A DNA stretch of 64,000 bases from Candidatus Zhuqueibacterota bacterium. GTDB lineage: Bacteria > Zhuqueibacterota > Zhuqueibacteria > Thermofontimicrobiales > Thiofontviventaceae. The notes beneath the pieces were generated by a model, which worked only from the letters and a program-made list of their open reading frames with translations, searched no databases and was not told the origin of the DNA. The stretch covers positions 339 through 64,338 of the forward strand of contig JAZBPW010000174.1 in NCBI GenBank assembly GCA_036351795.1. The letters are read 5' to 3'. Each line of letters starts with the position of its first letter. Positions within the stretch are counted from its first letter, which is position 1. This document shows positions 1 through 22,291 of the stretch, piece by piece. Both the position numbers and the translations under genes were made by a program.

Positions 1-1
1 C

Positions 2-1663
2 GACTGGAAAGCCATGTTTCCCGATACAGTGACATATCCGCTTACGTCTGGTGCTTCCGGTCCCAGTGAAGCCGGCAGCCATCAGGTCGAAACCTCTGAT
101 ACGGACAACGGCAGAGTCGGCGTTCTCGTGGCAAATCCCGGACACGACTTCTATCTGTTCGAGAGTTTTGATGATGGTGTTACTTGGAACGACGCCTATC
201 AGGTAATTGGAAACACCTTTTTCACGGACGAGGATTCGCTTTCTGCTCCGTTTTTGTGGGATGTCGTCATTATCGACAGCTCGGAATTCGGCGGTGATAT
301 CGATACGATTCTTTATCCATTCTATCACGATTCTGAGACCGGTGAGCCGGAAACATGGGGTCCCCGACCTCATGGTCCTGCAGATCTGCTGTATGTGAAT
401 GGTGAACCCCATGTCGTCTGGAATCAAACGTTATGGACTTCTGATAATTCTTACTATCCAAACGGGTATAGCTACACTTGGACGAATCCGGCTTATAAAT
501 TTTTGGACGGCAGTACAAGGCGCAGAGATGCAAATTTTTCTATTAAGCACTGGAGCCCTTCCACAGGCGTTTCAACTATTTGGTTCCAAGATGAAACTTC
601 CAGTGTATGGCCGGGAACGTTCCAGCAGTACGTCACTATGCCGCAGATCGGTGTCGATGAAAGCGGTTCGCTCTATTGCCTGTTCACCAAGTACAGCGAT
701 ACCGACACCCTTCTGGCGTCGGATGGCATCAGCCAGGCTGACACAGATTTTGGACCTCTGAGTTTCGGTCGTATCTGGGGCGCGAAATCGGACGATGGCG
801 GCGCGACATGGTATGACGCTGTGCAAATGATACCCGAAGAGGATTGTATTCATCAGAATCTCAGATACATCGCTGTCGCGAATCAGAACGGTAATGATGC
901 GATTCAAATTCTTTATCAGAATACGCCGGATGTTCCGGGTGTGCCGATCGGCGAAGGTTCCGATCACAGCACCTGGGCCAATGCGAATATGATGCACTGG
1001 GCGATACCGACATCTGCATTTCCAATGACTATGGAGGTGGAAAAGGGACCAGAACTTCTGCTGGAAACCTCCAGCACCATGGGCGGATTGCATTTCGGCG
1101 ACATCGGCAATGCCGGTGAAGCGATGCTCAGCTTCAAAGTCCATAATATCGGCGACGAGGACCTCGTTGTGGATGAAATTTTCACAACCGATAAATCTTT
1201 CAACGCCACGCCGACCAGTTTCACAGTGGCTCCCGGCGGAATGCAGGAAGTTCAGGTGACTTTCAAGCCGAGAACGGATCAGATGTACGATGAAATCCTG
1301 GCGTTGCCGAACAATGACCCGACCGAAGGAAATGCCGGAATCCCATTGGAGGGCATGGGCCTGCCAACGTCAGTGGCCGAGACACCGAACGCTCAGCCCG
1401 CGACCTACGCGCTGGCTCAGAACTATCCGAATCCGTTCAATCCTGTAACCCATATCAGCTTCAGCCTGAAACAGGCTGGTCAGGTGAAACTGGCTGTCTA
1501 CAATGCGCTGGGTGAAGAGGTCGATGTGCTGGTGAATGAAAACATGCGCGGCGGAAGCCATACATTCACCTGGAAGCCGTCGAATGTCTCCAGCGGCGTC
1601 TATTTTTATCGCATCACCGCAGGTGAGTTCAGCAGCATGAAGAAGATGATTTTAATGAAATAG
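2..1663 (+). CDS. Secreted BNR/sialidase-like beta-propeller protein with T9SS C-terminal sorting domain (5' partial)
   Basis: The reading frame is open to the window edge and the M14 product has no signal peptide, so the gene is truncated. Two Asp-box/BNR motifs are present (SFDDGVTW, KSDDGGATW). There is an Ig-like segment (LSFKVHNIGDEDLVVDEI...VQVTFKP). The C-terminus QNYPNPFNPVTHISF...SGVYFYRI...KKMILMK fits the Por/T9SS CTD pattern (TIGR04183-like). Confidence 0.7.
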   Translation, partial: DWKAMFPDTVTYPLTSGASGPSEAGSHQVETSDTDNGRVGVLVANPGHDFYLFESFDDGVTWNDAYQVIGNTFFTDEDSLSAPFLWDVVIIDSSEFGGDIDTILYPFYHDSETGEPETWGPRPHGPADLLYVNGEPHVVWNQTLWTSDNSYYPNGYSYTWTNPAYKFLDGSTRRRDANFSIKHWSPSTGVSTIWFQDETSSVWPGTFQQYVTMPQIGVDESGSLYCLFTKYSDTDTLLASDGISQADTDFGPLSFGRIWGAKSDDGGATWYDAVQMIPEEDCIHQNLRYIAVANQNGNDAIQILYQNTPDVPGVPIGEGSDHSTWANANMMHWAIPTSAFPMTMEVEKGPELLLETSSTMGGLHFGDIGNAGEAMLSFKVHNIGDEDLVVDEIFTTDKSFNATPTSFTVAPGGMQEVQVTFKPRTDQMYDEILALPNNDPTEGNAGIPLEGMGLPTSVAETPNAQPATYALAQNYPNPFNPVTHISFSLKQAGQVKLAVYNALGEEVDVLVNENMRGGSHTFTWKPSNVSSGVYFYRITAGEFSSMKKMILMK

Positions 1664-1684
1664 TACGGGGTACGATTCTGTGTA

Positions 1685-1724
1685 ACCACAAGGACACTGG
1701 ATGATTATCCTCTGTCCTTGTGGT
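1685..1724 (+). terminator. Perfect 12-bp-stem hairpin between the BNR gene and the TonB-dependent receptor gene (attenuator, processing or stabiliser hairpin; weak U-tract)
   Basis: ACCACAAGGACA (1685-1696) and TGTCCTTGTGGT (1713-1724) are exact reverse complements with a 16-nt loop. They are followed by ATTTAAAT rather than a clean T-run. The hairpin lies 22 nt after the upstream stop and 25 nt before ATG 1750. Confidence 0.4.
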
Positions 1725-1749
1725 ATTTAAATCAGGGAGTGAATGTGTA

Positions 1750-4731
1750 ATGAGAAAAATCACTAAATCAGCCTTATTTCTCATAATAATGCTGGTAATC
1801 AGTTCTCAAATATGTCTGGCCGGCACTGTCGGAAAGATCGTCGGTTATGTGACGGACGCGAAAACAGGAGAGCCTTTGCCGGGTTGTAATGTGGTGATCA
1901 AGGGCACGAATATGGGCTCCGCGACGGACATCGAAGGGTATTTTTTCATCGTCAATGTGCCTCCCGGTACCTACACCGTATTTGCCAGTATGGTTGGCTA
2001 TGGTGTGCTCGAAAAGACCGGAGTTCGCATCTCCATGGATTTGACGACAAATGTCAATTTCAGGCTCAAGGAAGAGGTGATCGAAGGCGAAACCGTACAG
2101 GTGGTCGCCGAGAGACCCATGGTGGAAAAGGACGTCACCGTCAAGAAGATGGTGATCAGCGCGCAGGAGATCAGAAGCGCGCCAGTCCAGGACCTCACCG
2201 ACATGATGACACTGCAATCCGGTGTGATTGCCATCGAATATCAATCCTACGGAATTCCCGGATTCGCCGCGCGTGGTGTGGAACAGATCCATGTCCGTGG
2301 CGGCCGGTCGGGAGAGGTCGGGTATATTTTCGACGGCATGTACATCGAGAATCCAACATACGGCGGAATCGGTAAGGGTACGCGTCTCAATAAGTACGCA
2401 GTGGAAGAGGTTGTGACCGAGACAGGTGTTTTCAATGCCGAATACGGCGATGCCATGTCCAGCATGGTCAACTGGGTGACCCGATCAGGTGATTTTCATA
2501 AATATGAGGGTATTCTGAGATACCGGACGAGCGAGATCGGTGGCAGCCTGGTAGATAGAAGCAGTTTCCTCTATCCAAACAGGATCCAGGGTTTGAAGGA
2601 TTTCGCCGGCGCGTTCGGCGGTCCGATTCCCTTTCTCAAGAATAAGGTCTCTTTTTATGTCTCAGGACAATCAACGAGCGAGCGATCCCGCGTCGTCGAG
2701 TTCGATGAAAATACATGGACCGATGGACCCTTGCCGGGGAACAATCCATATAACCCTGTGTCGAATTACCTCCCGCCGTACAATCCCAATGATCCGGATG
2801 ATCGCTCTGATCCGCTGGACACGATTTCCGGATGGCGGGCGCTGGGGTATGAAGGAACGAAAGACGTGTTTGCCAAACTCGCATGGCGTATCAACCCCAA
2901 CATGCAGCTCTATCTGACCAACTGGATCGTGGATACGGATCTCAAATTTTACGGCAATGAAGGCGAGTCGCTCATTTTTCAGTATTATGAGGACGGTAAA
3001 AACTGGACGCTGCTCAACTCCGACCGGCAGAGCCTCGAATGGCGGCATCAGTTGTCATCGAAGACATATTACACGCTCCGGTATTCACGTTTCTGGCAGC
3101 GCAGGCGTTATCTCGTGAAGAATCAGGATAATGATAACGACGGATATGATGACTGGCTCGAAACCCGGCTTGGCACGGATCCCTATAACGCGAATCCCAA
3201 CGTGGAAGACGCGGTTCCGGTGGATTCGGACAATGATGGCTATCCGGATGAAGTAGAGATAAATCTGGGTTTATTGCGGGATGATGTCGATATCATTCTT
3301 CCCGGGGGTGCGGAAAACGATCCGAACGTATACCCGGATCCGTCGCTATTCCCGCTGAGCAACGAGTGGCTGGAACCCTGGCAATACAACTCATGGGGGT
3401 ACGGCTATCAGGCGCCATATTACAGCTACACGATCGAAGGCTCCGGCCGCTACTGGCACCACTCCTACGCCGAAACCAATGAACTGCGGCTGGATGTGAC
3501 GAGCCAGGTGAGCAAGAACCATCAACTGCAGATGGGGATCGATGGCAAAACGCACAACCTGTTTTTTGATGAAATTCAGCTCCCATGGCTTGAGCAACCT
3601 TATGAAGACAGCTATCACAATTATCCATACGAGGCTGCGGCATACATTCAGGACAAGGTTGAGTATCCGCACATGACCATCAACCTCGGCCTGCGTTTCG
3701 ACATGAATAACTATAATACCACGGCTTGGGAAGATCCGAACGATCCCGACAGTCCATTGGTCGATACAAAAAATAAATACAAATGGAGTCCCAGGCTCGG
3801 TATATCGCATGTGATCACCGATCGCGCGACATTTACGTTCGGCTACGGTATCTTCTATCAGAATCCGATTTACAGGAATATCTATCTCAACAGCCAGCGC
3901 GATTTAACCACATTCTCTCCCATAGTGGGAAATCCGCTGGTGGGTGCTCAAAAACTTACGGCATATGAATTCGGCGTACGGAACCAGGTCTCCTCGGACT
4001 GGGTCGTCGACCTGGTCGGCTGGATCAAGGAGTACGGCGAGCTGGATGCTACGGAGAGAGTCCCCGCATTCCCGTTCAGCTACACGGTGAATAAGGGCAT
4101 CGATTACGGCACGGCACGGGGTGTGGATGTCACGCTTGAAAAACGGAGTATTTCGGACAATCTCGCCGGACGTGTCACCTATACGTACTCAGTCGCAAAG
4201 GCGAATCGCGCGGATCCATGGGAAGGATACAGAAACACGGATACGCCTGAAACTATGCCAAAAAGAGAGATTCTGATGAATTATGACCGTACCCATGACT
4301 TCAGCGTGATCATGGGATATCTGACGCCAAAGGGCAGGGGGATCGATATTTTCGGAATAAAACCTTTTTCCAACCTGCGCTGGGATGTTGTCTTCTTTGC
4401 GCAGAGCGGCGCACCCTATACGCCGACCATCGAAGGCATACCACAGGAGACGAATTCCGAGAGAATGCCCTGGATTTATCAGACAAATTTAGGGTTCTCC
4501 AAGATATTCGAGATCGGCGATTTCAAGTACAAGATCGGTATGACCGTTGAAAATCTTTTCGATCGCGAGAATGTGATCGATGTTTATAATGAAACAGGGA
4601 GGCCGGATGATCCAGGCCGTCGCGCGAATAACAGGATCGCTGCCGGACAAAATTCCGACACATCGTACGATACGCCATACTTTTACGGTCCGAGAAGAAG
4701 TATTCAGTTCACAACGGAAATTGAGTTTTAA
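1750..4731 (+). CDS. SusC/RagA-like TonB-dependent outer-membrane receptor (carboxypeptidase-regulatory-like N-domain + plug + barrel)
   Basis: Start moved from track position 1720 (inside the hairpin) to ATG 1750, which gives the signal peptide MRKITKSALFLIIMLVISSQICLA. The N-domain reads GKIVGYVTDAKTGEPLPGCNVVIKGTNMGSATDIEGYFFIVNVPPGTYTVFASMVGY. A plug-like segment reads ISAQEIRSAPVQDLTDMMTLQSGV...HVRGGRSGEVGYIFDGMYIENP. An ~800-aa barrel region ends in the OMP-type terminal Phe (TTEIEF). Confidence 0.8.
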   Translation: MRKITKSALFLIIMLVISSQICLAGTVGKIVGYVTDAKTGEPLPGCNVVIKGTNMGSATDIEGYFFIVNVPPGTYTVFASMVGYGVLEKTGVRISMDLTTNVNFRLKEEVIEGETVQVVAERPMVEKDVTVKKMVISAQEIRSAPVQDLTDMMTLQSGVIAIEYQSYGIPGFAARGVEQIHVRGGRSGEVGYIFDGMYIENPTYGGIGKGTRLNKYAVEEVVTETGVFNAEYGDAMSSMVNWVTRSGDFHKYEGILRYRTSEIGGSLVDRSSFLYPNRIQGLKDFAGAFGGPIPFLKNKVSFYVSGQSTSERSRVVEFDENTWTDGPLPGNNPYNPVSNYLPPYNPNDPDDRSDPLDTISGWRALGYEGTKDVFAKLAWRINPNMQLYLTNWIVDTDLKFYGNEGESLIFQYYEDGKNWTLLNSDRQSLEWRHQLSSKTYYTLRYSRFWQRRRYLVKNQDNDNDGYDDWLETRLGTDPYNANPNVEDAVPVDSDNDGYPDEVEINLGLLRDDVDIILPGGAENDPNVYPDPSLFPLSNEWLEPWQYNSWGYGYQAPYYSYTIEGSGRYWHHSYAETNELRLDVTSQVSKNHQLQMGIDGKTHNLFFDEIQLPWLEQPYEDSYHNYPYEAAAYIQDKVEYPHMTINLGLRFDMNNYNTTAWEDPNDPDSPLVDTKNKYKWSPRLGISHVITDRATFTFGYGIFYQNPIYRNIYLNSQRDLTTFSPIVGNPLVGAQKLTAYEFGVRNQVSSDWVVDLVGWIKEYGELDATERVPAFPFSYTVNKGIDYGTARGVDVTLEKRSISDNLAGRVTYTYSVAKANRADPWEGYRNTDTPETMPKREILMNYDRTHDFSVIMGYLTPKGRGIDIFGIKPFSNLRWDVVFFAQSGAPYTPTIEGIPQETNSERMPWIYQTNLGFSKIFEIGDFKYKIGMTVENLFDRENVIDVYNETGRPDDPGRRANNRIAAGQNSDTSYDTPYFYGPRRSIQFTTEIEF

Positions 4732-4770
4732 TCTCTGATACATTTATCTAAAATCAGAAGAGGCAATTTT

Positions 4771-7700
4771 ATGAGGAAATTAAGTATTATCGTAATTCTA
4801 TTTTCCTTGCTTTTCACGCATGCGATCCTTTTGGCAGTGGATGCCAAGAAATCGGATACAACATCGGGTTCATTGAAGAAGGGATCGGAGAATGAGATGA
4901 GCTCGGCCATCGATGAAACGCCCGAAGAGGCCATCGCGCAACGGGCAAAGGGTTTTTTGCTGAAAGGCGAGTTAAAGACCATGACGGCCAACACCGGCAA
5001 GATCGTGGGCCATGATTTTTCCAACTGGTCGAATCCCGAAGGATTGTACAAAGGATTTCAATACCTGGCAGCGGTCGGCATGATGGTGGGTGTGAACGGC
5101 GCCCGGGATGATGATCCTGCTGAAATGAAAGAACGCTATCCCTGGAGTCTGCGTCCGCACCCGACGATTACGGACAGCTTTTATTACTGGGGACCGACGG
5201 TTTCCGAGTCGCATTTCGATCGGACGAGCAATGTCACACGACCGGACTGGATGCCGGTGAAGAACCACAATGGCAGACTGCATTCCGGATCGGTGATCGC
5301 CTCCGAGGTGTCAGAATATCAGCAGTATGCTGCGCTGAATGAGCAGGTGCCTTTGTTGGCGACCAGTGATAAGCCGAATAGCTGGCCGACCGGATATTAC
5401 AATGAAAATGGAGAGTGGATGCTTGCTCCTTCCGGCATTTACGCAGACCTGACGGATAATGAGAAAGCATTAGTCGACAGTCTGAAAGCCTATTTCGATC
5501 CGGAAGAGGAGACATGGCATTTCTGGCCCGGTCCATGGGCAAGAGATCCCAACCCTAACTCCCCGACCTATAATATTGAAGTGGCGGGAAGTTTTTTCTC
5601 GGATGTGGATATCTACATGGCGTATGATGACCGCTGGGCGGTTCGGGATATCGACGATAAGCAGGGTTACACAATGGGACTGGAAGTGAATGTCTCCGGT
5701 TTTTCATACGGACGTTCATTTGCCGAGGATATTATCTTCTTCCCCGTTCAGATCATCAATAAAAGCAATGAGATTGGCACCATCAAGCAAGGTCGCAGGT
5801 GGGAAGAGTATACCAATGACGGACAGGGCTGGGATTATAAAGATATGTATGTCGGATTCTATTTCGACGTGGATGCCTATAACAAACAGGCCGATGGTAA
5901 TCTGTCCGGCAGAACAAATGATGATGACATGATGGCGTACAACAGCGATCTTGATTTCGCGTACATCTGGGATCTGGATGACGAAAGCGGCGGACTGACA
6001 GGCATGGCATACACTGCCCTCAAATTTTTAGATTCACCGCCATCTGCAAGAGATCTGGATCTTGATAACGATGGTGTGATCGATGTCATGCAGGGTGACA
6101 AGCTTGGTTTGACCGACTGGCACTGGTTCGACTGGTACGCCAGACCGGGCGTTCGTGCTGTGGAAACGAATTCAGGGCCTTTTGTCGGTGATGGAACCAC
6201 ACCGGTGGCCCGGAACAAGGAAGAAGCCATGTATCGCGTGATGAGCGGCGATACAACCGGATTGACCGAGTCGCAGAAAGACTGGTATTTCTGGCATTCT
6301 GATCCCGCTGCTACCGATAATCTGCATTTCAATTCATTGGAAAATCTGTTCGGCAATTATCCCAATGGACTCGATTGCGTCCTTATCGCCAGCGCGGGAC
6401 CTTTTGATCTGGCGCTTGGCGATACTGTCAATTCGTCGTTCAGCATCATTATGGGCGACAGCCCCATCGATCTGGTACAGAACGCGGAGATCGCGCAGTT
6501 GATGTACGATAATTATTATCAGGGACCGGATCCGCCAAAGGCGCCGAATGTCCAGGCCGTTGTATCGCCCTATACGACGACAACGGGTGAAACCCGGAAC
6601 AGAGTCACATTGTATTGGGATCGTCGTTCAGAGGAGTACATGGACGTGATGACGGGCTACAAGGACTTCGAGGGCTATCGCGTATACAAGAGCACGGACG
6701 GCGGCAGGACATGGGGCGACCCGGAGAGAGATCTCATCCGCGATGAGCTCGGCATCTCCCGCGGCTGGTTGCCAGTCGCTTACTGTGACAAGATCGACGG
6801 CATAGGCGGCAGAGATCAATTCGCGCCATGGATATACCTCGGAAATGATGAGATCGATGAGGGTGAGGGCGAAGATGGACTCTTCCACTCTTTCACAGAT
6901 TATGACATAGAAGACGGTGTGACTTACTCTTACGCGGTTACGTCCTATGACTATGGAATCGAAGAGGACAACCTGCTCCTGAATCCGCTGAAGTTTCAGT
7001 TCAATCTCGAATCCCTGGAAAATTTCAAGGGGAACAGTGCGTCAGAACCGCAGTTCGTCAGCGTGACGCCGCAGCCAAAGGCCAGCAATTTCGTGGATGT
7101 GAAAATCGATACCAACACCGATGGTACGGTCAGGCGCATCGAGGGCAGCGGTCTCGCCAAGATCGTGGTCGATGTTGTCGATCCCTATCAGGTGACGGGA
7201 CATGAGTATAAGATCATTTTCAGGGATTCGCTCATATCCACAATGATTCCGGCTCTGGACTCTGTGGCAACGGATACATTGTACGGAAGCAAGGATACAG
7301 TGACAGTCTATGACTACTATGTCGATTCGACCGGTACAGAGCAACGTCAGACCCTGGTCTACAATGTATGGGATCTCGATCAGCAAGAGTGGAGGTTCAC
7401 CGACAATGATGGGAAGGCTGCTTTCAGTGATCGCATATTCAACATCGATGGCGGTGGCGCCGGTGTCGGAACGACAATCGACAGCCTCAATCAGGGCTTC
7501 ATCAACGGCACCGAGTATTCTCCGATATTCGACGGACTCCGGCTGAAGATCACCAATGTGGCGAACAAACCGTTCTTCCGCAGAGCGCGATGGTCCGGAG
7601 AGTCCAACTGGGAGATCGATTTTGTGAAGTGGGCGACTCAGGTTCCCAAGGATTATATGCTGATATTCAACAGTTCTTATCCTGATTCGGCATATCAACT

Positions 7701-8484: not shown

Positions 8485-8510
8485 CATAAATTACATGGAG
8501 TTCATATAAA

Positions 8511-9545: not shown

Positions 9546-9736
9546 GCTGAGTTCGTGAGGATCGTTTATTAAATTAAAGGAGGTGGTATACCGTTTTTGC
9601 ATCACTTGTTGAATCAACATGAGTAAAAAATGCATCTAACCATTTAGAATCGGTGAGGAGGTGGTGTGAACACAAAAGAAGAAGTCGTCATTAATTCATC
9701 GTTTCATTCAATCACTAACTTTATCAGGAGGAAAAC

Positions 9737-12748: not shown

Positions 12749-12771
12749 TTTTTTGGTCATCAGCTTTAATG

Positions 12772-12808
12772 AAAGGGCCTTCGGTTTATACCGGGGCCCT
12801 TTTTTATT
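12772..12808 (+). terminator. Rho-independent terminator after the 9737-12748 gene
   Basis: AAGGGCC (12773-12779) pairs with GGCCCTT (12795-12801). The hairpin is followed by a T-rich tract TTTTTATT and begins 24 nt after the stop codon. Confidence 0.8.
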
Positions 12809-13186: not shown

Positions 13187-13215
13187 TTGACTTTCTTCGC
13201 TGAAATGTGTAAATT
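13187..13215 (+). promoter_or_regulatory. Sigma70-type promoter of the protease operon (TTGACT-17-TAAATT)
   Basis: TTGACT at 13187-13192, an exactly 17-nt spacer, and TAAATT at 13210-13215. The -10 box lies 49 nt upstream of the S8 protease start. Confidence 0.5.
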
Positions 13216-13263
13216 AAATCTTTTGTAAGTGACAACTTTCCTGATATTTATAGGGCAATTTAT

Positions 13264-16200: not shown

Positions 16201-16986
16201 ATTGTCGGCATGGAGGATTTCGAGACAGGATTGGCACATTGGAGTGGCGATTGGGGGCTGGACAGTATAACGGTGCATTCGGGCCGCTTCGCCCTGTCAG
16301 ATCATTCAAAATCCGGTATTGGTTATCCTGACAACAGCGAGTCGATCATCAGATTGAATGATGCGCTGGATTTTTCCGATGTGACTTCGGCATCGCTGCA
16401 GTTCTGGTCGAATCATGAGCTCGAAGATATGCAGGACTTCGGATACATAGAATTGAGCGGCGATGATGGTGCTACCTGGACAGGGATCGGGGAGTGCATC
16501 ACAGGCAGCTCCATCGATTGGAAGGAGTACAGTTATTCACTGGAGGATTTTATTGATTCCGGTGTTGACGTTTTTCAGTTGCGTTTTCGCCTGAGCACGG
16601 ATTCGTCGCAGGCAGTTCCGATGAGGGGATGGGCAATCGATGACATCAGGATCGTGAGCGAAACGTCAACATCGGCAGCAGGCATACTGACTGACGCGCA
16701 TGTGCCTGATAAATACTATTTGTCCCAGAATTATCCCAATCCGTTCAATCCGGGAACTTCGATTGAATACGGATTGTCGGCATATTCGAAAGTAAGAATT
16801 AATATTTACAACCTTTTAGGACAGCGGATCATGACGCTGGTCAATGAATTTAAAAGCGCGGGAGTGCATGAAGTCGCATGGGATGGTCTTGATGCAAATG
16901 GAGTCCGCCAACCCAGCGGAGTATATATTTACACAATGATAACGAACGAATATATTCAAACCAATAAAATGATATTGTTGAGGTAA
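13264..16986 (+). CDS. Subtilisin-family (S8) serine protease, multidomain, with MAM-like module and T9SS CTD
   Basis: TTG start is the first start codon after the in-frame stop at 13210. Short signal peptide MTKSVVFLLVIHLMTGVVTG. Pro-domain ending ...VTYAEPDYLLP. Catalytic triad motifs IIDTGVDWDHPDL (Asp), DGHGTHVAGIAAA (His) and GTSYCSPQAAGVAALI (Ser). MAM-like module ...FQLRFRLSTDSSQAVPMRGWAIDDIRIV. CTD QNYPNPFNPGTSIEY...SGVYIYTMI...NKMILLR. Confidence 0.9.
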   Translation: MTKSVVFLLVIHLMTGVVTGKEHSPRPHLPGIVIVKLNADIPFRSSHAYQHLTEQHAVLKVETMFEKMNRHSLVKKSLGGIYRLQLPDHADVMKVCGMLNGLSDVTYAEPDYLLPVEAVPNDPYFNIQYHLTQIRAAEAWDVVKGDSTVIIGIIDTGVDWDHPDLANAIWQNADEKLNGEDTDNNGYADDVRGWDFLESHAFDYPPAYGEDGIEADNDPMDFDGHGTHVAGIAAAVTDNAEGVASVSWNCSIMPLRAGYKATDGYGYIVMSAAAEAFVYAADNGAHVVNLSTSASNTIVDAARYAFDSGLVIVKSAGNDNRNTPDLLETQPYCLNVAAVDRFDQKTWYSDYGKWVSLSAPGERSYTTVIDKYGSVQGTSYCSPQAAGVAALIRTQHPDWSAADIIFQIMGTADNINQQNPNYSGLLGSGRINAIRAVTESVIPAPNIEMNAIVLIGGDDDGIAEAGERLSLVVEFVNRMGTAVNVMAELMIDHWAVSIDKGSASIGDIPGLRNLDENVKDNEADPFIITIDSLAIPQRVSGTVKVHDQNGYSQSFAIHFAISPSLLVVDDEELQNESYYYAALDSLGISYDCWNRDAQGSPFILGRYPSVVWFCGHWTIPSLDAGDRDVLKAYLDQGGSLFLSGQDIGWDLCDPNPPKDFANQRIISDGESKNFYEDYLRAIYLNDVAGYSQLSGVSGDPIGDGTSFQIYQPGRPVTEQYPSEIAPTDSAAPVFVYPDQGAAAVRHSGIYRSVYFAFGGWEAIVDEAQRFIVMDRTLEWMNGVSIVHTPLSNVGDTTQARTVNAQVISAMSPIARVDLFWDTDGEYPFKRKKMEKRDGNTYEGMIPAAGSNEVQYFILASTENGYTTPVKMHTYTSELDTVPPVISGVSSIPNSITRRSDHPVSAEVVDQYGVDTSSVKCEFRTSSNDSGSFHLTHQNGNLFSGILSGDFHYGDTVFYRIHAMDLSLEQNKTVSRKLHFIVGMEDFETGLAHWSGDWGLDSITVHSGRFALSDHSKSGIGYPDNSESIIRLNDALDFSDVTSASLQFWSNHELEDMQDFGYIELSGDDGATWTGIGECITGSSIDWKEYSYSLEDFIDSGVDVFQLRFRLSTDSSQAVPMRGWAIDDIRIVSETSTSAAGILTDAHVPDKYYLSQNYPNPFNPGTSIEYGLSAYSKVRINIYNLLGQRIMTLVNEFKSAGVHEVAWDGLDANGVRQPSGVYIYTMITNEYIQTNKMILLR

Positions 16987-16993
16987 TGTAAAA

Positions 16994-19330
16994 ATGAAAA
17001 AACAACTCATCTTTTGTCTGTTATTGATTCCTTTCAGCAGTGGGGTGGCTTCTGACTATAATGCAGAGGCTATTAATCGCATCATCGGGGAGAAGGGTGC
17101 CCGGTGGACTGCCACAGAAAATCGCATTACCGCCATGGCCGCGGAAGAGCGAAAAATGTTGTGCGGTGAAATTATGCTGCCGGATTACTCTGTGAATCCG
17201 GAAATCCTCTCCTTCGAGGCTGTGAAAGATATCCCGTCACATTTAGACTGGCGTGACAATAACGGAAATTGGGTGACACCAGTTCGGGATCAGGGACAAT
17301 GCGGAAGCTGCGTCGCGTTCTCAGAATTGGGACAAATTGAGTCCTGGTGGAAAATCCGTAACGCGAATACCGATACGGTGATCGACCTCTCAGAGCAGAT
17401 CATTCTTTCATGCAGTAATGCTGTGACTTGCGCGCATGGAGGATATATGTCCAGTGTGCTTGAATGGGTAAAACTCAACGGAGTGCCGCTCGAGGAATGC
17501 ATGAGCTATCAGGCCTTGGATGGCATACCATGCAGCAATGCGTGTGATGACTGGCAGGCTCAGTCCGTGACAATCCCTGGCTGGGGATGGGTTTCGTATG
17601 AAAAAGATATTGTTGCAAACATTAAAAGCGCACTATATCGCCACCCGGTATCCGCCAGTTTTACTGTTTACAGCGACTTTTACGGGTATCATAGCGGTGT
17701 CTACGAGCATGTCTATGGTAATGCCGAGGGCGGGCATGCGATTCTGATCGTTGGATGGGATGATGAGGAGCAGAGCTGGATCTGCAAAAACAGCTGGGGA
17801 GTGGACTGGGGCGAAGAAGGCTACTTCAGGATCAAATGGGGCGACAGCAATATGGGAGACTACGCACCTTTCATTTATGATGGAATGACGAGCCGTGTTT
17901 CCGTACAGCTCGCGCCGGATATATTTGAATTCGATATGACAGTCGGCGATTCCTCGATACATGAGCTCGAAGTGACGAATATCGGGCCAGACAATCTGGA
18001 ATATGCCGCAATGGATTACATGTACGGGAATGGTGTGCCTGCATGGATGGAGATCATGGACGGCGGTGGTGTGCTCGCTCCAGGAGAGACAATGCCGATT
18101 CGCTTCAAAGTGAAGACCAGGGAACTCGATCCAGGCACATACCGGGCAAGACTGGGTGTCCGATCCAACGACAGTTATCTGCCGCTCAAGGAGCTGATCT
18201 GTCGTCTGAATCTCGTTCCACCCGATCATGATCTCAAAGTATCTCAAATCTTGCTTCCGAATGATTATGTGCGCATATTCTCCTATATGCAATTCACTTC
18301 GACGATAAGCAACGAGGGATTATCTTCTGAGACCAATGTCGATGTCCTGGGTACGATTCGAATGGGTGATCAGATTGTTTTCTCGGATACGGTGCGCATC
18401 GATGCGATCGCTCAATTCGGCGTGATTTCTATCAAATTTGATTCTCTTTATATTACTCAATCCGGTGTGCTGGATATTCACGTGGAGCTTCTCAATCTGG
18501 ATAATGATCATAACGGCTATAATGATTACCTGAATCAGACCGTTGAGGTGAAGCATCTCGTCGACAGCTTTGAAAATGAGTGCGACCTGTGGCTTTGTGA
18601 AGGCGGCTGGGGGGTGAGTAATTTGTTGAACGGGCATAGTGGGAGCCATTCGGCACATGTGAATTCAGGGGCATTTCCTTATTTAAATGACATGAGCGGA
18701 AGCATGACCTTTGTGCCGGGATTCGAACTGCACGCCGTGAAAAGTGCCGTGATAAAATATTATACGCGTTACGCGACTGAGAAAGACAAAGATGTCTGTT
18801 ACATCGAAGTCAGCGGTGACAATGAGAAATGGGATCTGATGGATACGATTTCAGGTATCAATCTGGCGTGGACGCAACGGGAACTGAATATCACCGATTA
18901 TATCAAGCCTGAATATCCAAGAGTCTGGGTGCGTTTTCGATTTATTTCAGACAGCGATATCAATAACGTGGGAGTGTTGATCGATGATATCGAGATCTAT
19001 CCGCTGGAGAGTACACATGTAAGTGACTTCAGCCAGCCCTCAGCACAACCGACTGACCTTGCGTTGTTTCAGAATTATCCGAATCCGTTCAATCCTGTGA
19101 CCACCATCAGCTATCGGTTACCGTCAGAGAGCGACGTCGATCTTTCCATTTACAATCTGAATGGTCAACGTATTCTCACATTGATGAATGGACGACAAAC
19201 CGCAGGACACTATACGATTACCTGGAACGGAAGGGATGATGCCGGTTCGCTGATGAGTTCCGGGATCTATCTTTACAGACTGAACGCGGGGAATGAGATC
19301 CAGACGAGAAAATTGACTTTGATGAAATAG
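16994..19330 (+). CDS. Papain-family (C1A) cysteine protease with Ig-like/CARDB-like, MAM-like modules and T9SS CTD (paralog 1)
   Basis: Starts 7 nt after the S8 stop, so it belongs to the same operon. Signal peptide MKKQLIFCLLLIPFSSGVA. Catalytic motifs VRDQGQCGSCVAFS (Gln/Cys), GGHAILIVGWDD (His) and ICKNSWG (Asn). Also GYFRIKWGD. CTD QNYPNPFNPVTTISY...SGIYLYRLNAGNEIQTRKLTLMK. Confidence 0.9.
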   Translation: MKKQLIFCLLLIPFSSGVASDYNAEAINRIIGEKGARWTATENRITAMAAEERKMLCGEIMLPDYSVNPEILSFEAVKDIPSHLDWRDNNGNWVTPVRDQGQCGSCVAFSELGQIESWWKIRNANTDTVIDLSEQIILSCSNAVTCAHGGYMSSVLEWVKLNGVPLEECMSYQALDGIPCSNACDDWQAQSVTIPGWGWVSYEKDIVANIKSALYRHPVSASFTVYSDFYGYHSGVYEHVYGNAEGGHAILIVGWDDEEQSWICKNSWGVDWGEEGYFRIKWGDSNMGDYAPFIYDGMTSRVSVQLAPDIFEFDMTVGDSSIHELEVTNIGPDNLEYAAMDYMYGNGVPAWMEIMDGGGVLAPGETMPIRFKVKTRELDPGTYRARLGVRSNDSYLPLKELICRLNLVPPDHDLKVSQILLPNDYVRIFSYMQFTSTISNEGLSSETNVDVLGTIRMGDQIVFSDTVRIDAIAQFGVISIKFDSLYITQSGVLDIHVELLNLDNDHNGYNDYLNQTVEVKHLVDSFENECDLWLCEGGWGVSNLLNGHSGSHSAHVNSGAFPYLNDMSGSMTFVPGFELHAVKSAVIKYYTRYATEKDKDVCYIEVSGDNEKWDLMDTISGINLAWTQRELNITDYIKPEYPRVWVRFRFISDSDINNVGVLIDDIEIYPLESTHVSDFSQPSAQPTDLALFQNYPNPFNPVTTISYRLPSESDVDLSIYNLNGQRILTLMNGRQTAGHYTITWNGRDDAGSLMSSGIYLYRLNAGNEIQTRKLTLMK

Positions 19331-19381
19331 GATATATATCTAAAATTCTAAAATTAACTCACAAAATACAGGATGTGATTC

Positions 19382-22291
19382 ATGAGAAAATTGGCGCTGA
19401 TTATCGGTTTATTCCTACTGAATACTGCATACGCGACTGAAAATGTACAGAAAATAAATTCAATGATCATAGAAAGCAACGCGCAGTGGACTGCGGCTCA
19501 AAACTGGACGACGGCATTGACTCTCGAGGAAAGGCGCAATCTGTGTGGTTCATTCATGCAGCCGGCGAATCCGGCTGATGCTGAGTTGATGACGATCGAT
19601 GCTGTATCCAGCCTGCCGGCTCAATTGGACTGGCGGACGAATGGTGGAAACTGGGTGACACCGGTGAGAAATCAGGGGAGTTGCGGCAGCTGTTGGGACT
19701 TTTCAGCCGTAGGCCAGATCGAAGCATGGTGGAAGATCAGAAACGGGGATCCCAACGCGAATATCGACCTGTCCGAACAGTTTATACTCTCTTGCAGCGA
19801 TGGCGGTTGTGACGGATATTGGGTATCCGGTGCCCTCGATTTTGTAAAGGAGAACGGTATCCCCACGGAGAGTTGTTTTCGATACTATGCGGACGACACA
19901 ATCCCATGCAGCAATACATGCGAGAACTGGCAGGACGAGGCAATCAAGATTCCGGGATGGGGATATATCACGCTGAGTGAAGCCATCGTCGAGAATATCA
20001 AAAATGCGGTCTATAGACATCCCGTATCCGCTTCTTTCACTGTGTATGAGGATTTCAATTATTACTCCGGCGGCGTGTACGAACATGTCTGGGGTTCGGA
20101 ACTCGCGGGGCATGCGATTCTCATCGTCGGCTGGAATGATGCGGAACAGAGCTGGATATGTAAAAACAGCTGGGGTGAAAACTGGGGTGAAAATGGATAT
20201 TTCCGGATCAAGTGGGGCGACAGCGGTATGGGAACATACATGTCATTCATCTGGGATGATGTGATCGGTAATTCAAGTCTGTCTGTGACCCCGGAGAATC
20301 TGCAGTTCTCGCTTTTTTCCGGTGAACAATTTGAACAGGATCTGCTCATCACCAACAACGGCCTTGAGCAACTTGAATTCATACTCATCGATTACGAAGT
20401 ACCCATTGCATTTCATACGGACGATTTCAATGCATGGGATGGTATGTCGTGGTGGTGCGGCGATGAAAAGATCGGTGGATATGAAGATCACTGGCTGCAA
20501 TATCTGGATACACCGGTGATTGACCTGTCAACGACATCTCAGCCGGAGTTGACATTCAAAGTCCGGTGGGATGTCGAAAGAGCGGAAGGCGCCAGTCCGC
20601 CATACGATGGATGGGATGGTTGTAACGTGTGGGTGTCAGCTGACGGAGGTGAAAGCTTTGAACCGGTCTATCCTGATTACCCTCAATATGACAGCAATTC
20701 ACTCTTCAGCTTCGGTGATGTGGAACAGGGTTGGGATCTGGGGAGCGGCGTGCCCGGGTGGACCGGGAGCAGCGCGGGCTGGCAGGACGCGAAAGTCAAT
20801 CTGGCTGCATACCAGTACGCAACAAATGTGGTCATACGGTTCGCGTTTGCCTCTGACAAGGGGCTTTGCACCAACGACGATCCGGGCCTGACAGGCTTTT
20901 TTGTGGATGAGGTGATAGTGACAGATGGCACGAATGTCCTGTTTGGCGATAGTGCGGAAACGGATACGGAAATGTTAGCGAGGGGGTATGGATCAAAGAA
21001 TGCTGACTGGATGCAGATCAGTTACGATGCGGGTCTTTTGAGGACAGCCGAATCAATAAGAGCCACAGTAAAAATCGACACGAGAGATCTGGCTCCCGGT
21101 AATTACCGCGGATTGATACAGATGAATACAAACGATACGACGCACTCCATGCTTGAACTCCCGGTACAACTGGACGTGAAGATGGCGAGCCATGATCTTG
21201 CTGTCGAAGAAATTATTGTCCCTGATTATGGTCTGGCCATCCTTTCCTCTCAGGAAATTGAGGCTGTCGTTGAAAACAAAGGGTACTCTCAGGAGAGCAA
21301 TATCAGTGCTGTATGCACGATCGCCAGTGATGATCTTGTCATCTACAACGATATCGTGCAAATCGGTTCACTGGCATCAGGTGCCAGAGAAGTCATTCAA
21401 TTTGCGCCTTTCTATGCTACAGAAGTGGGCGTGATGAAAATACGCGTGGAATTGTCAGACGTCGATGATTTCAATAATTTCAATAATGCTATGGAGACAG
21501 AATTAACCATCACCAACATGTTTGAGAGCTTTGAAAGTCTGGATGGAAAATGGAAGCTGTCGGGCGGGTGGGGAACGACCATGTTTTACGGCGCGCGTAC
21601 CGGTGAAATGGCTGCGCACGTGAATAACGGCGTCATTCCTTATTCGAATGATATGAACGCGTTCATGACTTACGACGAGGGCATCAATGTACAGAATCTG
21701 AGTGCATTGAAGCTCAAGTATTATGCCAAATATTTCACGGAAAAAGACAATGATTTCTGTTACCTTGAAGTGAGCCCGGATAAAAGGACATGGACGGCTG
21801 AAGATTCGATCTCGGGGATGGACCTGACCTGGGCACAGCGGGAAGTCGATTTGAAAGAATATCTTGGTCAGGGCGAGAAAATATGGTTCAGATTTCATTT
21901 CGTCAGCAATGTTTCCATTGTTAATTTCGGCGTATTAATCGATGATTTGGAGATCTATCCCACGCTGGCGACACGCGTTGTTGATCAAACACCTCAGGAG
22001 GGCATCCCGGTCGATTGGCAGTTGGGCCAGAATTACCCAAATCCATTCAACATGAAGACGACGATCTCGTACACGCTGAAAGAGGCAGGTCCTGTCACAT
22101 TGAAGATTTACGACACCACCGGACGGATCGTTCGGACTCTGCTTCATTCATCTCAATCAGCTGGTTATCATATAATTGACTGGAATGGCAGGGATGACTT
22201 TGGAATGGCAGTGAGTACCGGGGTCTATTTTTACAGGATGACGGCAGGAGCCGCCTACGCGGTAACGAACAAGATGATCCTGTTAAAATAG
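19382..22291 (+). CDS. Papain-family (C1A) cysteine protease with extra internal MAM-like insertion and T9SS CTD (paralog 2)
   Basis: Signal peptide MRKLALIIGLFLLNTAYA. Catalytic motifs VRNQGSCGSCWDFS, AGHAILIVGWND and ICKNSWGENWGENGYFRIKWGD. Inserted module WWCGDEKIGGYEDHWLQYLDTPVIDLS...GWDGCNVWVSADGGESFEPV...VVIRFAFASD...FFVDEVIV. CTD QNYPNPFNMKTTISY...TGVYFYRMTAG...NKMILLK. Confidence 0.9.
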   Translation: MRKLALIIGLFLLNTAYATENVQKINSMIIESNAQWTAAQNWTTALTLEERRNLCGSFMQPANPADAELMTIDAVSSLPAQLDWRTNGGNWVTPVRNQGSCGSCWDFSAVGQIEAWWKIRNGDPNANIDLSEQFILSCSDGGCDGYWVSGALDFVKENGIPTESCFRYYADDTIPCSNTCENWQDEAIKIPGWGYITLSEAIVENIKNAVYRHPVSASFTVYEDFNYYSGGVYEHVWGSELAGHAILIVGWNDAEQSWICKNSWGENWGENGYFRIKWGDSGMGTYMSFIWDDVIGNSSLSVTPENLQFSLFSGEQFEQDLLITNNGLEQLEFILIDYEVPIAFHTDDFNAWDGMSWWCGDEKIGGYEDHWLQYLDTPVIDLSTTSQPELTFKVRWDVERAEGASPPYDGWDGCNVWVSADGGESFEPVYPDYPQYDSNSLFSFGDVEQGWDLGSGVPGWTGSSAGWQDAKVNLAAYQYATNVVIRFAFASDKGLCTNDDPGLTGFFVDEVIVTDGTNVLFGDSAETDTEMLARGYGSKNADWMQISYDAGLLRTAESIRATVKIDTRDLAPGNYRGLIQMNTNDTTHSMLELPVQLDVKMASHDLAVEEIIVPDYGLAILSSQEIEAVVENKGYSQESNISAVCTIASDDLVIYNDIVQIGSLASGAREVIQFAPFYATEVGVMKIRVELSDVDDFNNFNNAMETELTITNMFESFESLDGKWKLSGGWGTTMFYGARTGEMAAHVNNGVIPYSNDMNAFMTYDEGINVQNLSALKLKYYAKYFTEKDNDFCYLEVSPDKRTWTAEDSISGMDLTWAQREVDLKEYLGQGEKIWFRFHFVSNVSIVNFGVLIDDLEIYPTLATRVVDQTPQEGIPVDWQLGQNYPNPFNMKTTISYTLKEAGPVTLKIYDTTGRIVRTLLHSSQSAGYHIIDWNGRDDFGMAVSTGVYFYRMTAGAAYAVTNKMILLK

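What the first reader, a model, noticed from the sequence alone, without database searches (positions are those of the whole stretch)
1..22291. 22-kb co-directional surface-proteome island: candidate protein (peptide) utilisation locus
Seen in sequence: eight consecutive + strand genes, all with signal peptides where the N-terminus is visible. Six carry T9SS-type C-terminal domains. They include a TonB-dependent transporter and three secreted endopeptidases (one S8, two C1A) in one operon with gaps of 7 and 51 nt. The rest of the window is ordinary housekeeping.

Inference: surface-anchored proteases sitting beside a TBDT suggest a PUL-like logic applied to proteins. Proteases degrade the substrate at the surface and oligopeptides are imported through the TBDT. 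The BNR protein and the MAM-like/FN3 protein could be substrate-binding accessories.
Basis: inference. Interest (0 to 1): 0.65.

Follow-up and report, generated by a model that had tools for sequence, protein, structure and literature searches.

The report
T9SS-anchored TonB transporter protein-degradation locus
This 22-kb stretch of a candidate-division KSB1 genome holds an undescribed three-gene outer-membrane module (a TonB-dependent transporter, a large uncharacterised surface protein and its own PorV/PorQ-type anchor barrel) that sits beside secreted proteases in several poorly studied phyla and probably captures, cuts and imports protein.

Summary
There are eight co-directional genes. 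All seven visible N-termini carry signal peptides. Five proteins have canonical T9SS type A CTDs and one has a divergent CTD. There is one TonB-dependent transporter (TBDT), one S8 peptidase and two C1A peptidases with intact catalytic residues, separated by gaps of 7 and 51 nt.

It is a triad: TBDT (g2), a 1237-aa protein with no Pfam family (g3), and a PorV/PorQ-family barrel (g4). This triad recurs in at least 588 loci across KSB1, Calditrichota, Marinimicrobia, Ignavibacteria, WOR-3 and Gemmatimonadota.

In the fetched loci, proteins with a g3-type CTD are directly followed by a PorV/Q gene in 52 of 65 cases. Proteins with cargo-type CTDs are followed by one in 0 of 79.

In three phyla the order is BNR-like protein, TBDT, g3, PorV/Q, MAM-like protein, S8 protease. 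Other lineages place M16, M28, M14, M10 or C25 peptidases next to the triad. A separate variant carries GH13 amylase and CBM20 proteins instead.

The "protein utilisation locus" reading is therefore partly supported. The S8 linkage is conserved. The C1A pair is a lineage-specific addition. Uptake of peptides remains an inference. I found no paper describing this module.

The parts
1..1663 (+). g1, 5'-truncated: Asp-box (BNR-like) beta-propeller-type region, Ig-like domain, T9SS type A CTD
   Evidence: Frame open to base 2. Two SxDxGxxW Asp-boxes. HYDIN/VesB-like Ig and Por_Secre_tail. TIGR04183 42.2 bits. Full-length 790-834-aa homologues sit directly upstream of the TBDT in KSB1 relatives. 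Weak-BNR CTD proteins hold the same position in Calditrichota and Marinimicrobia.
1720..4731 (+). g2, TonB-dependent transporter with a CarboxypepD_reg N-terminal extension, a TonB-box-like ETVQVVAERP motif, a plug and a barrel. The likely true start is the ATG at 1750. An insert at about residues 495-545 carries DxDxDG Ca-loop (TSP3-like) motifs.
   Evidence: CarbopepD_reg_2 70.9 bits and Plug 34.5 bits. Family profile A6 hits CirA, PhuR, a SusC homologue, PfeA and others in the PDB. The VxVxAERP motif is conserved in the alignment. SusC/RagA TIGR04056 scores only 58 bits against a cut-off of 368.
4771..8484 (+). g3, a 1237-aa surface protein of an uncharacterised family. Order of parts: signal peptide, conserved ~545-aa beta-rich N-domain, FN3, variable beta-sandwich domains, then a distinct and highly conserved CTD.
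   Evidence: No Pfam hit. All 237 homologues are named 'hypothetical'. 588 loci in species-representative genomes. AF2 model: pLDDT 82 for the whole protein, pLDDT 90.4 and pTM 0.92 for the N-domain. Fold hits to PorZ, PorU and RemA-CTD come through the C-terminal part. The N-domain matches only weakly (TM about 0.25) to galactose-mutarotase-like beta-supersandwich domains. About 21 invariant residues lie in the last 96 aa across phyla.
8511..9545 (+). g4, a PorV/PorQ-family outer-membrane beta-barrel, inferred to be the dedicated carrier and anchor of g3
   Evidence: NF033709 193.7 bits (cut-off 90). Below the equivalog cut-offs for PorQ (80.3/220), PorV (65.5/250) and PorV2 (60.9/325). Matches F. 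johnsoniae PorV 6h3i_F at E = 1.6e-9. A PorV/Q gene directly follows 52 of 65 g3-type-CTD genes and 0 of 79 cargo-type-CTD genes.
9737..12748 (+). g5, a MAM-like (choice-of-anchor J) protein with an FN3-like region and a type A CTD. No catalytic domain was recognised.
   Evidence: InhA-like_MAM 46.7 bits and Por_Secre_tail. TIGR04183 44.0 bits. A ~830-1050-aa MAM+CTD protein holds the same position after PorV/Q in 11-12 loci of other phyla.
12779..12806 (+). Intrinsic-terminator-like hairpin plus T-run after g5, followed by a 515-nt spacer
   Evidence: CTTCGGTTTATACCGGGG followed by CCCTTTTTTA.
13264..16986 (+). g6, a secreted subtilase: fervidolysin-like propeptide, S8 domain with D155/H225/S379, a long middle region, a MAM-like domain and a type A CTD
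   Evidence: Peptidase_S8 134.9 bits. Catalytic motifs present. Homologues with the same architecture are linked to the triad in KSB1, Calditrichota and Marinimicrobia.
16994..19330 (+). g7, a papain-family (C1A) cysteine peptidase with a type A CTD
   Evidence: Peptidase_C1 166.7 bits. Q100/C106/H248/N266 present. Belongs to a conserved ~785-aa type that is paired with a ~970-aa type in KSB1 and relatives.
19382..22291 (+). g8, a papain-family (C1A) cysteine peptidase with MAM-like and CARDB domains and a type A CTD
   Evidence: Peptidase_C1 181 bits and InhA-like_MAM 46 bits. Q98/C104/H244/N262 present.

Best explanation
The island is a cell-surface system for acquiring protein, built around a conserved and previously undescribed outer-membrane module.

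Shown:
- g2 is a TonB-dependent transporter.
- g3 is a large Sec- and T9SS-type exported protein with a distinct, highly conserved CTD.
- g4 is a PorV/PorQ-family barrel that almost always follows such a CTD.
- The three genes are inherited as one unit across several FCB-group phyla.
- The unit is flanked by T9SS-secreted proteins: a BNR-like protein upstream, then a MAM-like protein and an S8 endopeptidase downstream. In this genome two C1A peptidases are appended.

Inferred:
- g3 crosses the outer membrane through the T9SS and keeps its CTD. g4 holds it at the surface, as PorQ holds PorZ.
- Once there, g3 serves the adjacent TBDT as a substrate-binding lid or accessory. This would be a functional analogue of SusD/RagB that needs no lipid anchor.
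- The type A CTD endopeptidases g6-g8 cut proteinaceous polymers at the cell surface. Given the BNR-like protein and the sugar-binding-type fold of the g3 N-domain, these may be glycoproteins.
- The resulting oligopeptides are taken up through g2 using TonB energy.

The g3 N-domain probably sets substrate class. A sister variant with a different N-domain sits among GH13 amylase and CBM20 genes.
For: - Triad synteny. TBDT, g3 and PorV/Q occur in that order in nearly every one of the 80 fetched loci with enough flank. At least 588 loci exist among species-representative genomes. The ORFs abut or overlap. Similarity scores for TBDT and g3 co-vary (Spearman rho 0.96, n = 35).
- CTD-anchor pairing. 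A PorV/Q gene follows 52 of 65 g3-type CTD genes and 0 of 79 cargo-type CTD genes in the same loci. In tandem arrays each g3-like gene has its own PorV/Q gene.
- CTD identity. The g3 CTD matches only the non-cleaved CTDs of PorZ and PorU in NCBIfam. It is far more conserved than the variable middle of the protein. PorZ is anchored by PorQ, and the PorU and PorZ CTDs are not cleaved (PMC10947112).
- Separate T9SS machinery. The genome has its own PorZ elsewhere in the window, so g3/g4 is not the core attachment complex.
- Neighbours. Of 65 downstream neighbours, 12 carry S8, 4 M28, 4 M20, 2 M16, 2 M14 and 2 M1 (one protein can hit more than one of these families); C25 and M10 also occur. The order MAM protein then S8 recurs in 13 loci from three phyla.
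- Starch-type variant. GH13, SurA-like PPIase, TBDT, g3-like, PorV/Q, then a CBM20/48 CTD protein occur in L064 and L072. L066 shows the TBDT/g3-like/PorV-Q/CTD-protein core only; L076 (labelled Melioribacter roseus) has the PPIase and CBM20 protein but no amylase within the flank. The platform therefore accompanies degradative enzymes of different substrate classes, as PULs do.
- Paralogues. Several genomes have two or three triads, as expected for nutrient systems.
- Precedent. RagAB with T9SS gingipains gives the same logic in P. gingivalis (10.1101/755678 and PMC11817032).
- Physiology. Caldithrix abyssi, whose species name labels a MAG carrying the five-gene block (L015) and one homologue in the protein search, grows on proteinaceous substrates (PMC5317091).
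Against: - There is no expression, localisation or interaction evidence. Every functional step rests on gene context and homology.
- The g3 N-domain has no recognisable peptide-binding or catalytic fold. Its only structural similarity (TM about 0.25) is to carbohydrate-associated beta-supersandwich domains.
- The TBDT cannot be assigned to any substrate class.
- In this genome the proteases are separated from g2-g5 by a terminator and 515 nt.
- In the closest KSB1 relatives the triad is followed by MacAB/TolC-type efflux genes rather than proteases.
- The C1A pair is elsewhere in relatives.
- A Marinimicrobia subclade has g3 without an adjacent TBDT or PorV/Q.
- Part of the TBDT-g3 score correlation simply reflects species phylogeny.
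Confidence: 0.55

Rival explanations
1. The triad imports something other than peptides, for example glycans, glycoconjugates or another scarce nutrient. On this view the proteases lie nearby only because genes for T9SS-secreted surface proteins tend to cluster.
For: The g3 N-domain resembles galactose-mutarotase-like domains of glycoside hydrolases and phosphorylases. g1 carries sialidase-type Asp-boxes. A sister variant of the triad is clearly linked to alpha-glucan genes. The proteases form a separate transcription unit here. KSB1 relatives have efflux genes, not proteases, downstream.
Against: No glycoside hydrolase or lyase domain appeared among the shown families for the neighbours of window-type triads, whereas peptidases of at least seven families did. 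The MAM-protein-then-S8 order is kept across three phyla, often with gaps of 3-20 nt. The fold similarity is weak (TM about 0.25, about 9% identity).
Confidence: 0.17
2. The module works in export or surface assembly rather than import. One version has g2 acting like Myxococcus Oar, a TBDT with a CarboxypepD_reg extension that is needed to secrete the S8 protease PopC. The other version has g3/g4 as a large adhesin or S-layer-like protein with its private T9SS carrier, and the TBDT as only a structural neighbour.
For: Oar has the same N-terminal architecture as g2 and exports a subtilisin-like protease (PMC6434023). The recurrent partner of the triad is also an S8 protease. g3 is a multi-domain FN3/Ig-rich protein like many adhesins. 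Type B CTD adhesins are known to stay bound to dedicated carriers (PMC10994853).
Against: PopC lacks a signal peptide and a CTD. g6-g8 have both, so they already have a complete Sec plus T9SS route. The CarboxypepD_reg extension is the commonest TBDT architecture in the Bacteroidetes group and does not diagnose export (PMC6434023). The starch-type variant, with amylase and CBM20 proteins, and the presence of several paralogous triads per genome both fit nutrient uptake better.
Confidence: 0.15
3. The island is a chance juxtaposition of unrelated secreted-protein genes with no functional link.
For: The C1A pair is at another locus in relatives. T9SS cargo genes are numerous in these genomes; another one lies at 57815-61387.
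Against: The triad, and the wider six-gene order, recur across phyla whose g3 orthologues share only 35-42% identity. The 52/65 against 0/79 CTD-anchor pairing is also incompatible with chance.
Confidence: 0.03

Closest known systems
RagAB oligopeptide importer working with T9SS-anchored gingipains in Porphyromonas gingivalis
   Same: Surface-attached T9SS endopeptidases generate peptides, which a TBDT with a CarboxypepD_reg-type N-terminal extension takes up together with a dedicated surface-exposed partner (10.1101/755678 and PMC11817032). One triad locus (L016) even has a C25 gingipain-family peptidase.
   Different: g2 is not a SusC/RagA family member (58 bits against 368). There is no RagB/SusD-type TPR lipoprotein. 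The partner is a 1237-aa beta-rich protein with a CTD plus its own PorV/Q barrel. The proteases here are S8 and C1A, not C25. In P. gingivalis the gingipain genes are not part of the rag locus (my own knowledge).
SusC/SusD polysaccharide utilisation loci (PULs) and utilisomes of Bacteroidota
   Same: A TBDT gene is followed immediately by the gene for an obligate surface partner. Genes for surface binding proteins and degradative enzymes surround them. There are several paralogous loci per genome, and neighbour enzymes differ with substrate: peptidase-type and starch-type variants.
   Different: There is no SusD and there are no lipoproteins (no lipobox in any of the seven N-termini). Surface attachment is predicted to use T9SS CTDs and a PorV/Q-type barrel. 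The system occurs mainly outside Bacteroidota, in KSB1, Calditrichota, Marinimicrobia, Ignavibacteria, WOR-3 and Gemmatimonadota.
PorZ-PorQ and PorU-PorV sub-complexes of the T9SS attachment complex, and type B CTD proteins held by PorP-like carriers
   Same: A T9SS substrate whose CTD is retained and bound by a dedicated FadL-like barrel that anchors it at the surface (PMC10947112; PMC10994853). The g3 CTD matches only the PorZ and PorU C-termini, and g4 is in the PorV/PorQ family.
   Different: g3 shares no similarity with PorZ or PorU outside the CTD. The window encodes a separate true PorZ. g4 falls below the PorV, PorQ and PorV2 equivalog cut-offs. The pair is coupled to a TBDT gene and occurs in several copies per genome, so it is not core secretion machinery.
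Oar TBDT and PopC subtilase secretion in Myxococcus xanthus
   Same: A TBDT with a CarboxypepD_reg N-terminal extension is functionally tied to an S8 protease (PMC6434023).
   Different: The direction is export of a protein without a signal peptide. Here the proteases carry a signal peptide and a T9SS CTD. Oar has no g3/PorV-Q partners.

Membership tests
TonB-dependent transporter (g2) | N-terminal plug domain with a TonB box, followed by a 22-strand barrel | tested here: met
   Plug PF07715 scores 34.5 bits against a cut-off of 23.9. The ETVQVVAERP motif lies upstream of the plug and is conserved as VxVxAERP. The family profile hits plug and barrel regions of CirA, PhuR, PfeA and YncD. The strand number was not modelled.
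SusC/RagA subfamily (TIGR04056) (g2) | Full-length match above the curated cut-off | tested here: not met
   58 bits against a cut-off of 368.25, covering only residues 39-220, which are the N-terminal extension and plug.
Canonical PUL or Rag locus | A SusD/RagB-family lipoprotein gene next to the TBDT | tested here: not met
   No SusD/RagB family hit in any of the eight proteins. No lipobox in any N-terminus.
PorV/PorQ family (NF033709) (g4) | Score above the family cut-off | tested here: met
   193.7 bits against a cut-off of 90. Matches the PorV structure 6h3i_F at E = 1.6e-9.
PorV, PorQ or PorV2 equivalogs (g4) | Score above the equivalog cut-off | tested here: not met
   PorQ 80.3/220, PorV 65.5/250, PorV2 60.9/325.
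T9SS type A CTD cargo (TIGR04183) | C-terminal sorting domain above the cut-off of 23 bits | tested here: met
   g1 42.2, g5 44.0, g6 36.3, g7 46.1, g8 39.0. g3 is not hit. With HMMs built here, g3 scores 151.7 on the g3-type CTD model and 12.3 on the cargo model, while g5, g6 and g7 score only 13.0-16.3 on the g3-type model and g1 and g8 are not hit at all.
PorZ (NF052228) or PorU sortase (NF033707) (g3) | Full-length match: beta-propellers for PorZ, a C25-like catalytic domain for PorU | tested here: not met
   Only the last ~100 residues match (19.5 and 14.1 bits against cut-offs of 260 and 420). The true PorZ is at 39017-41266 (276.7 bits).
Peptidase S8 (g6) | Subtilase domain with the Asp-His-Ser triad | tested here: met
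   PF00082 134.9 bits. D155 (DTG), H225 (HGTH) and S379 (GTSYCSP) are present. Activity was not tested.
Peptidase C1A (g7, g8) | Papain domain with Gln, Cys, His and Asn | tested here: met
   PF00112 166.7 and 181 bits. The CGSC, GHA and NSWG motifs sit at the expected spacing. No MEROPS subfamily assignment was available.
Oar-type exporting TBDT (g2) | CarboxypepD_reg N-terminal extension and a requirement for export of a cargo without a signal peptide | tested here: inconclusive
   The extension is present, but it is the commonest architecture in this bacterial group (PMC6434023). The candidate cargos have signal peptides and CTDs. The export role cannot be tested here.

The most novel reading that the evidence does not exclude
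The TBDT, g3 and PorV/Q triad is a new class of TonB-dependent uptake complex, widespread in non-Bacteroidota FCB phyla. Its extracellular lid or substrate-binding subunit is a T9SS substrate that keeps its CTD and is held by a private PorQ-like barrel, not by a lipid anchor. This would be a SusD-independent 'utilisome' whose exchangeable N-domain and neighbouring T9SS enzymes set the substrate: protein in this window, alpha-glucan in the Melioribacter-type variant. It would also give PorV/PorQ paralogues a role outside secretion.
Probability: 0.4. Interest if true: 0.82.

Novelty: new variant of a known kind. Interest (0 to 1): 0.68.

Why it matters
KSB1, Calditrichota, Marinimicrobia and Ignavibacteria are abundant but mostly uncultured heterotrophs of sediments and the dark ocean. 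How they take up polymer-derived nutrients without SusD-type lipoproteins is not known.

If the module works as proposed, it offers:
- a recognisable genomic marker for protein-degrading (and starch-degrading) capacity in these phyla;
- a new kind of partner protein for TonB-dependent transporters;
- a new job for PorV/PorQ paralogues, as permanent anchors for working surface proteins;
- names and a testable function for a conserved ~1100-1250-aa family that is 'hypothetical' in every database searched.

Two organisms available in culture, Caldithrix abyssi and Melioribacter roseus, lend their names to MAGs that carry variants, so the idea is directly testable if the type strains carry them too.

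Tried and rejected
- A sequence search of the PDB with the g3 family profile gave no hit up to E = 10.
- The whole-chain fold search of g3 was dominated by generic Ig/FN3 multi-domain proteins with TM below 0.1. I therefore modelled the N-domain alone. It gave only weak beta-supersandwich similarity and no peptidase fold. The idea that g3 is itself a protease or a PorU-like sortase, prompted by invariant H451/C536, has no structural support.
- g3 as the PorZ or PorU equivalent of these phyla is rejected. Similarity is limited to the CTD, and a true PorZ is encoded 30 kb downstream.
- C1A peptidases as conserved partners of the TBDT is rejected. No C1 hit occurs in the 80 triad loci. Relatives keep a C1-C1-S8 operon elsewhere.
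- The + strand gene at 22358-23077 as a ninth island member is rejected. It has no signal peptide and an N-terminal Met-Cys class-II amidotransferase/Ntn-type fold, so it is cytoplasmic.
- Long minus-strand ORFs inside g3, g5 and other genes (for example 11330-12391) are shadow ORFs of the + strand genes.
- The generic sigma-70 promoter scan was no better than shuffled sequence: 27 sites against 24.9 expected.
- Placing g2 with a characterised TBDT class failed. Only generic plug and barrel similarity was found.
- Nine full-text searches found no description of this gene triad, and the phrases 'peptide/protein utilization loci' found nothing.
- Contigs of the closest KSB1 relatives often end inside or just after the triad. 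Conservation of the complete eight-gene island could therefore be checked only in L005, which shares g3-g4-g5-g6.


Full report
**1. What is in the sequence**

Region 1-22291 holds eight + strand genes and no credible minus-strand genes.

- g1 (<1-1663) runs off the left end. It has two Asp-box motifs, an Ig-like domain and a T9SS type A CTD.
- g2 (1720-4731; the likely start is the ATG at 1750) has a CarboxypepD_reg-type N-terminal extension, a TonB-box-like ETVQVVAERP motif and a Plug domain.
- g3 (4771-8484, 1237 aa) has no Pfam family.
- g4 (8511-9545) is a PorV/PorQ-family barrel (NF033709, 193.7 bits against a cut-off of 90). It falls below the PorV, PorQ and PorV2 equivalog cut-offs.
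- g5 (9737-12748) has a MAM-like (choice-of-anchor J) domain and a CTD.
- g6 (13264-16986) is an S8 subtilase with D155/H225/S379.
- g7 (16994-19330) and g8 (19382-22291) are C1A peptidases with the Gln/Cys/His/Asn set. All three proteases carry CTDs.

All seven visible N-termini look like Sec signal peptides, and none has a lipobox. The gaps of 7 and 51 nt are exact.

A terminator-like hairpin at 12779-12806 and a 515-nt spacer follow g5. g2-g5 (possibly g1-g5) and g6-g8 are therefore probably two transcription units.

The closest homologues of g3 (70-77% identity) come from candidate division KSB1.

Downstream, the window is mostly housekeeping. It also encodes a bona fide PorZ (39017-41266), a CTD-bearing GDSL lipase and an M19 dipeptidase.

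**2.

They come from KSB1, Calditrichota, Marinimicrobia, Ignavibacteria/Melioribacteraceae, WOR-3, Gemmatimonadota, Cloacimonadota and some MAGs labelled Bacteroidota.

In the 80 loci kept, almost every one with enough flank shows the order TBDT (g2-like), g3-like, PorV/Q (g4-like). The reading frames abut or overlap. The similarity scores of TBDT and g3 to the window proteins co-vary (rho 0.96, n = 35). Part of that correlation is simply phylogeny.

Several genomes carry two or three triads.

**3. g3 and g4 look like a cargo-anchor pair**

The g3 model is good: pLDDT 82 overall, and pLDDT 90.4 with pTM 0.92 for the N-domain. It shows a ~545-aa beta-rich N-domain, an FN3 domain, poorly conserved beta-sandwich domains and a C-terminal beta-sandwich. 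That last domain superposes on a T9SS CTD (8gl6_D). It also pulls PorZ (5m11) and PorU (6za2) to the top of the fold search.

In NCBIfam the g3 C-terminus matches only the C-termini of PorZ and PorU. Those two T9SS substrates keep their CTDs and are held by PorQ and PorV (PMC10947112).

Across phyla, the N-domain and the last ~96 residues contain nearly all of the invariant positions.

I built one HMM for the g3-type CTD and one for the window's cargo CTDs, then scored all ORFs of the loci. A PorV/Q gene immediately follows 52 of 65 g3-type CTD genes and 0 of 79 cargo-type CTD genes. Most exceptions belong to one Marinimicrobia subclade with orphan g3 genes.

In tandem arrays (g3, PorV/Q, short g3', PorV/Q) each CTD protein has its own barrel gene.

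The window has a separate true PorZ, and triads are multi-copy. g3/g4 is therefore not the core attachment complex.

**4. What accompanies the triad**

In 13 fetched loci the triad is followed by an ~830-1050-aa MAM-like CTD protein and then a ~1100-1170-aa S8 protease, most with a type A CTD. These loci are L005 (KSB1) plus L006, L007, L009, L012, L014, L015, L019, L020, L023, L027, L042 and L053, which the records label Calditrichaceae/Caldithrix, Neomarinimicrobiota or simply uncultured bacterium. Gaps are often only 3-20 nt. This is the window's order g2, g3, g4, g5, g6.

A weak-BNR CTD protein usually precedes the TBDT, as g1 does.

In the closest KSB1 relatives a g6-like S8 (36% identity over the full architecture) lies upstream of the g1 homologue. 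MacAB/TolC-type genes follow the triad there.

Of 65 downstream neighbours scanned with Pfam, 12 carry S8, 11 a MAM-like domain, 4 M28, 4 M20, 2 M16, 2 M14 and 2 M1 (one protein can hit several of these families). One locus has a C25 gingipain-family peptidase and another an M10 matrixin.

A distinct variant has a g3-like protein that shares only the FN3 domain and the CTD with g3. In L064 and L072 it sits between a GH13 amylase or cyclomaltodextrinase with a SurA-like PPIase upstream, and a CBM20/CBM48 CTD protein downstream. L066 shows the TBDT/g3-like/PorV-Q/CTD-protein core only. L076 (labelled Melioribacter roseus) has the PPIase and the CBM20 protein but no amylase within the flank.

The triad thus behaves as a platform that travels with degradative surface enzymes, mostly peptidases.

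**5. The C1A pair is a local addition**

Homologues of g7 and g8 are common in KSB1, Marinimicrobia and Calditrichia. They come as a conserved pair of ~785-aa and ~970-aa types.

In three long contigs the pair forms a C1-C1-S8(~745 aa) operon in an unrelated neighbourhood. In one assembly the triad is on a different contig from that operon.

No C1 domain was found in any of the 80 triad loci.

**6. Mechanism**

Shown:
- gene identities;
- export signals;
- intact catalytic motifs;
- synteny;
- the CTD-barrel pairing.

Inferred:
- g3 is exported by the T9SS, keeps its CTD and is held at the surface by g4.
- g3 serves the adjacent TBDT as a binding subunit or lid.
- The type A CTD endopeptidases cut proteinaceous substrate at the surface, and g2 imports the oligopeptides.

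The BNR-like g1 and the weak similarity of the g3 N-domain to galactose-mutarotase-like domains (TM about 0.25) leave room for glycoprotein substrates, or for a glycan ligand.

I put 0.55 on this model. The rivals are a non-peptide substrate (0.17), an export or adhesin role including an Oar/PopC-like function (0.15; PMC6434023) and coincidence (0.03). The remainder is unassigned.

**7. Comparison with known systems**

The logic matches RagAB plus gingipains and SusCD PULs. Membership in either fails:
- g2 scores 58 bits against a cut-off of 368 for SusC/RagA.
- No SusD/RagB is present.
- No lipoproteins are present.

The g3/g4 pair works like PorZ-PorQ but is not PorZ or PorQ.

The N-domain family is small and unnamed. 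It comprises 175 clusters at 50% identity among 1.84 billion representatives, and every homologue is annotated 'hypothetical'.

Nine literature searches found no description of the triad.

**8. Verdict**

What is notable is the conserved TBDT, g3, PorV/Q module with its peptidase neighbourhood across several understudied phyla, rather than the 22-kb island as such. It is a new variant of the TBDT-plus-surface-partner theme. Interest is 0.68.

Noticed in passing
window 39017-42600 (+): A bona fide T9SS PorZ (NF052228, 276.7 bits against a cut-off of 260; Reg_prop and PorZ N-propeller domains). It is followed, with a 4-nt overlap, by a 445-aa ORF that matches no Pfam or NCBIfam family.
   Followed up: partly
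window 57815-61387 (-): A 1190-aa GDSL lipase/esterase with Big_1/invasin Ig domains, a Cohesin domain and a type A CTD. It is another T9SS cargo outside the island. Dockerin_1 domains occur in 4 neighbours of triads in other loci, and g2 carries DxDxDG Ca-loop motifs.
   Followed up: no
window 1720-4731, g2 residues ~495-545: An insert with DNDNDGYDD and DSDNDGYPDE Ca-binding-loop motifs (TSP3- or dockerin-like). It aligns in KSB1 relatives but not with the TBDTs of Calditrichota or Marinimicrobia triads.
   Followed up: partly
L019, L023, L053, L024, L050 (labelled Neomarinimicrobiota or uncultured bacterium): Tandem arrays of g3, PorV/Q, short g3' (FN3 plus g3-type CTD only), PorV/Q. The two PorV/Q copies are 100% identical in protein sequence in three MAGs, 99% in one and 81% in another. 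The cause could be recent duplication, gene conversion or an assembly effect.
   Followed up: partly
L086, L087, L088 (L086 and L087 KSB1; L088 unlabelled metagenome contig): A conserved operon of C1A (~785 aa), C1A (~970 aa, MAM) and S8 (~745 aa). It is always preceded by a divergent small asparaginase-like gene and followed by a small ORF, PGA_cap and DUF2851. It is unlinked to the triad.
   Followed up: partly
L064, L066, L072, L076 (Melioribacter roseus): Starch-type variant of the triad: GH13 amylase or cyclomaltodextrinase, SurA-like PPIase, TBDT, a 1223-1251-aa g3-like protein with a different N-domain, PorV/Q, then a CBM20/CBM48 CTD protein (all elements confirmed only in L064 and L072).
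   Followed up: partly
L035, L036, L038-L041, L049, L080 (Marinimicrobia): A subclade of full-length g3 homologues with the g3-type CTD but with no adjacent TBDT or PorV/Q gene. They are embedded in a different, conserved neighbourhood.
   Followed up: no
L001, L084, L085 (KSB1 relatives): Directly downstream of the triad lie Yip1, an OEP (TolC-like) protein, a membrane-fusion protein and MacB-type ABC/FtsX genes. The g5 and protease genes seen in the window are absent at this position.
   Followed up: no
window 22358-23077 (+) and L070:8734-9963: Just after g8 lies a cytoplasmic class-II glutamine-amidotransferase-like (Ntn, N-terminal Cys) protein. In a Marinimicrobia locus a GATase_4 domain fused to a type A CTD follows a triad.
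   Followed up: no
window 30462-31553 (+): An M19 membrane dipeptidase lies 8 kb downstream of the island. It could act on imported peptides, but nothing links it to the island.
   Followed up: no
L017-L053 (Marinimicrobia-type loci), gene directly upstream of the TBDT: A conserved ~690-770-aa protein family with no Pfam hit and no CTD precedes the TBDT in many loci labelled Neomarinimicrobiota or uncultured bacterium (for example L027:3587-5674; 33-45% identity among about 20 members).
   Followed up: no
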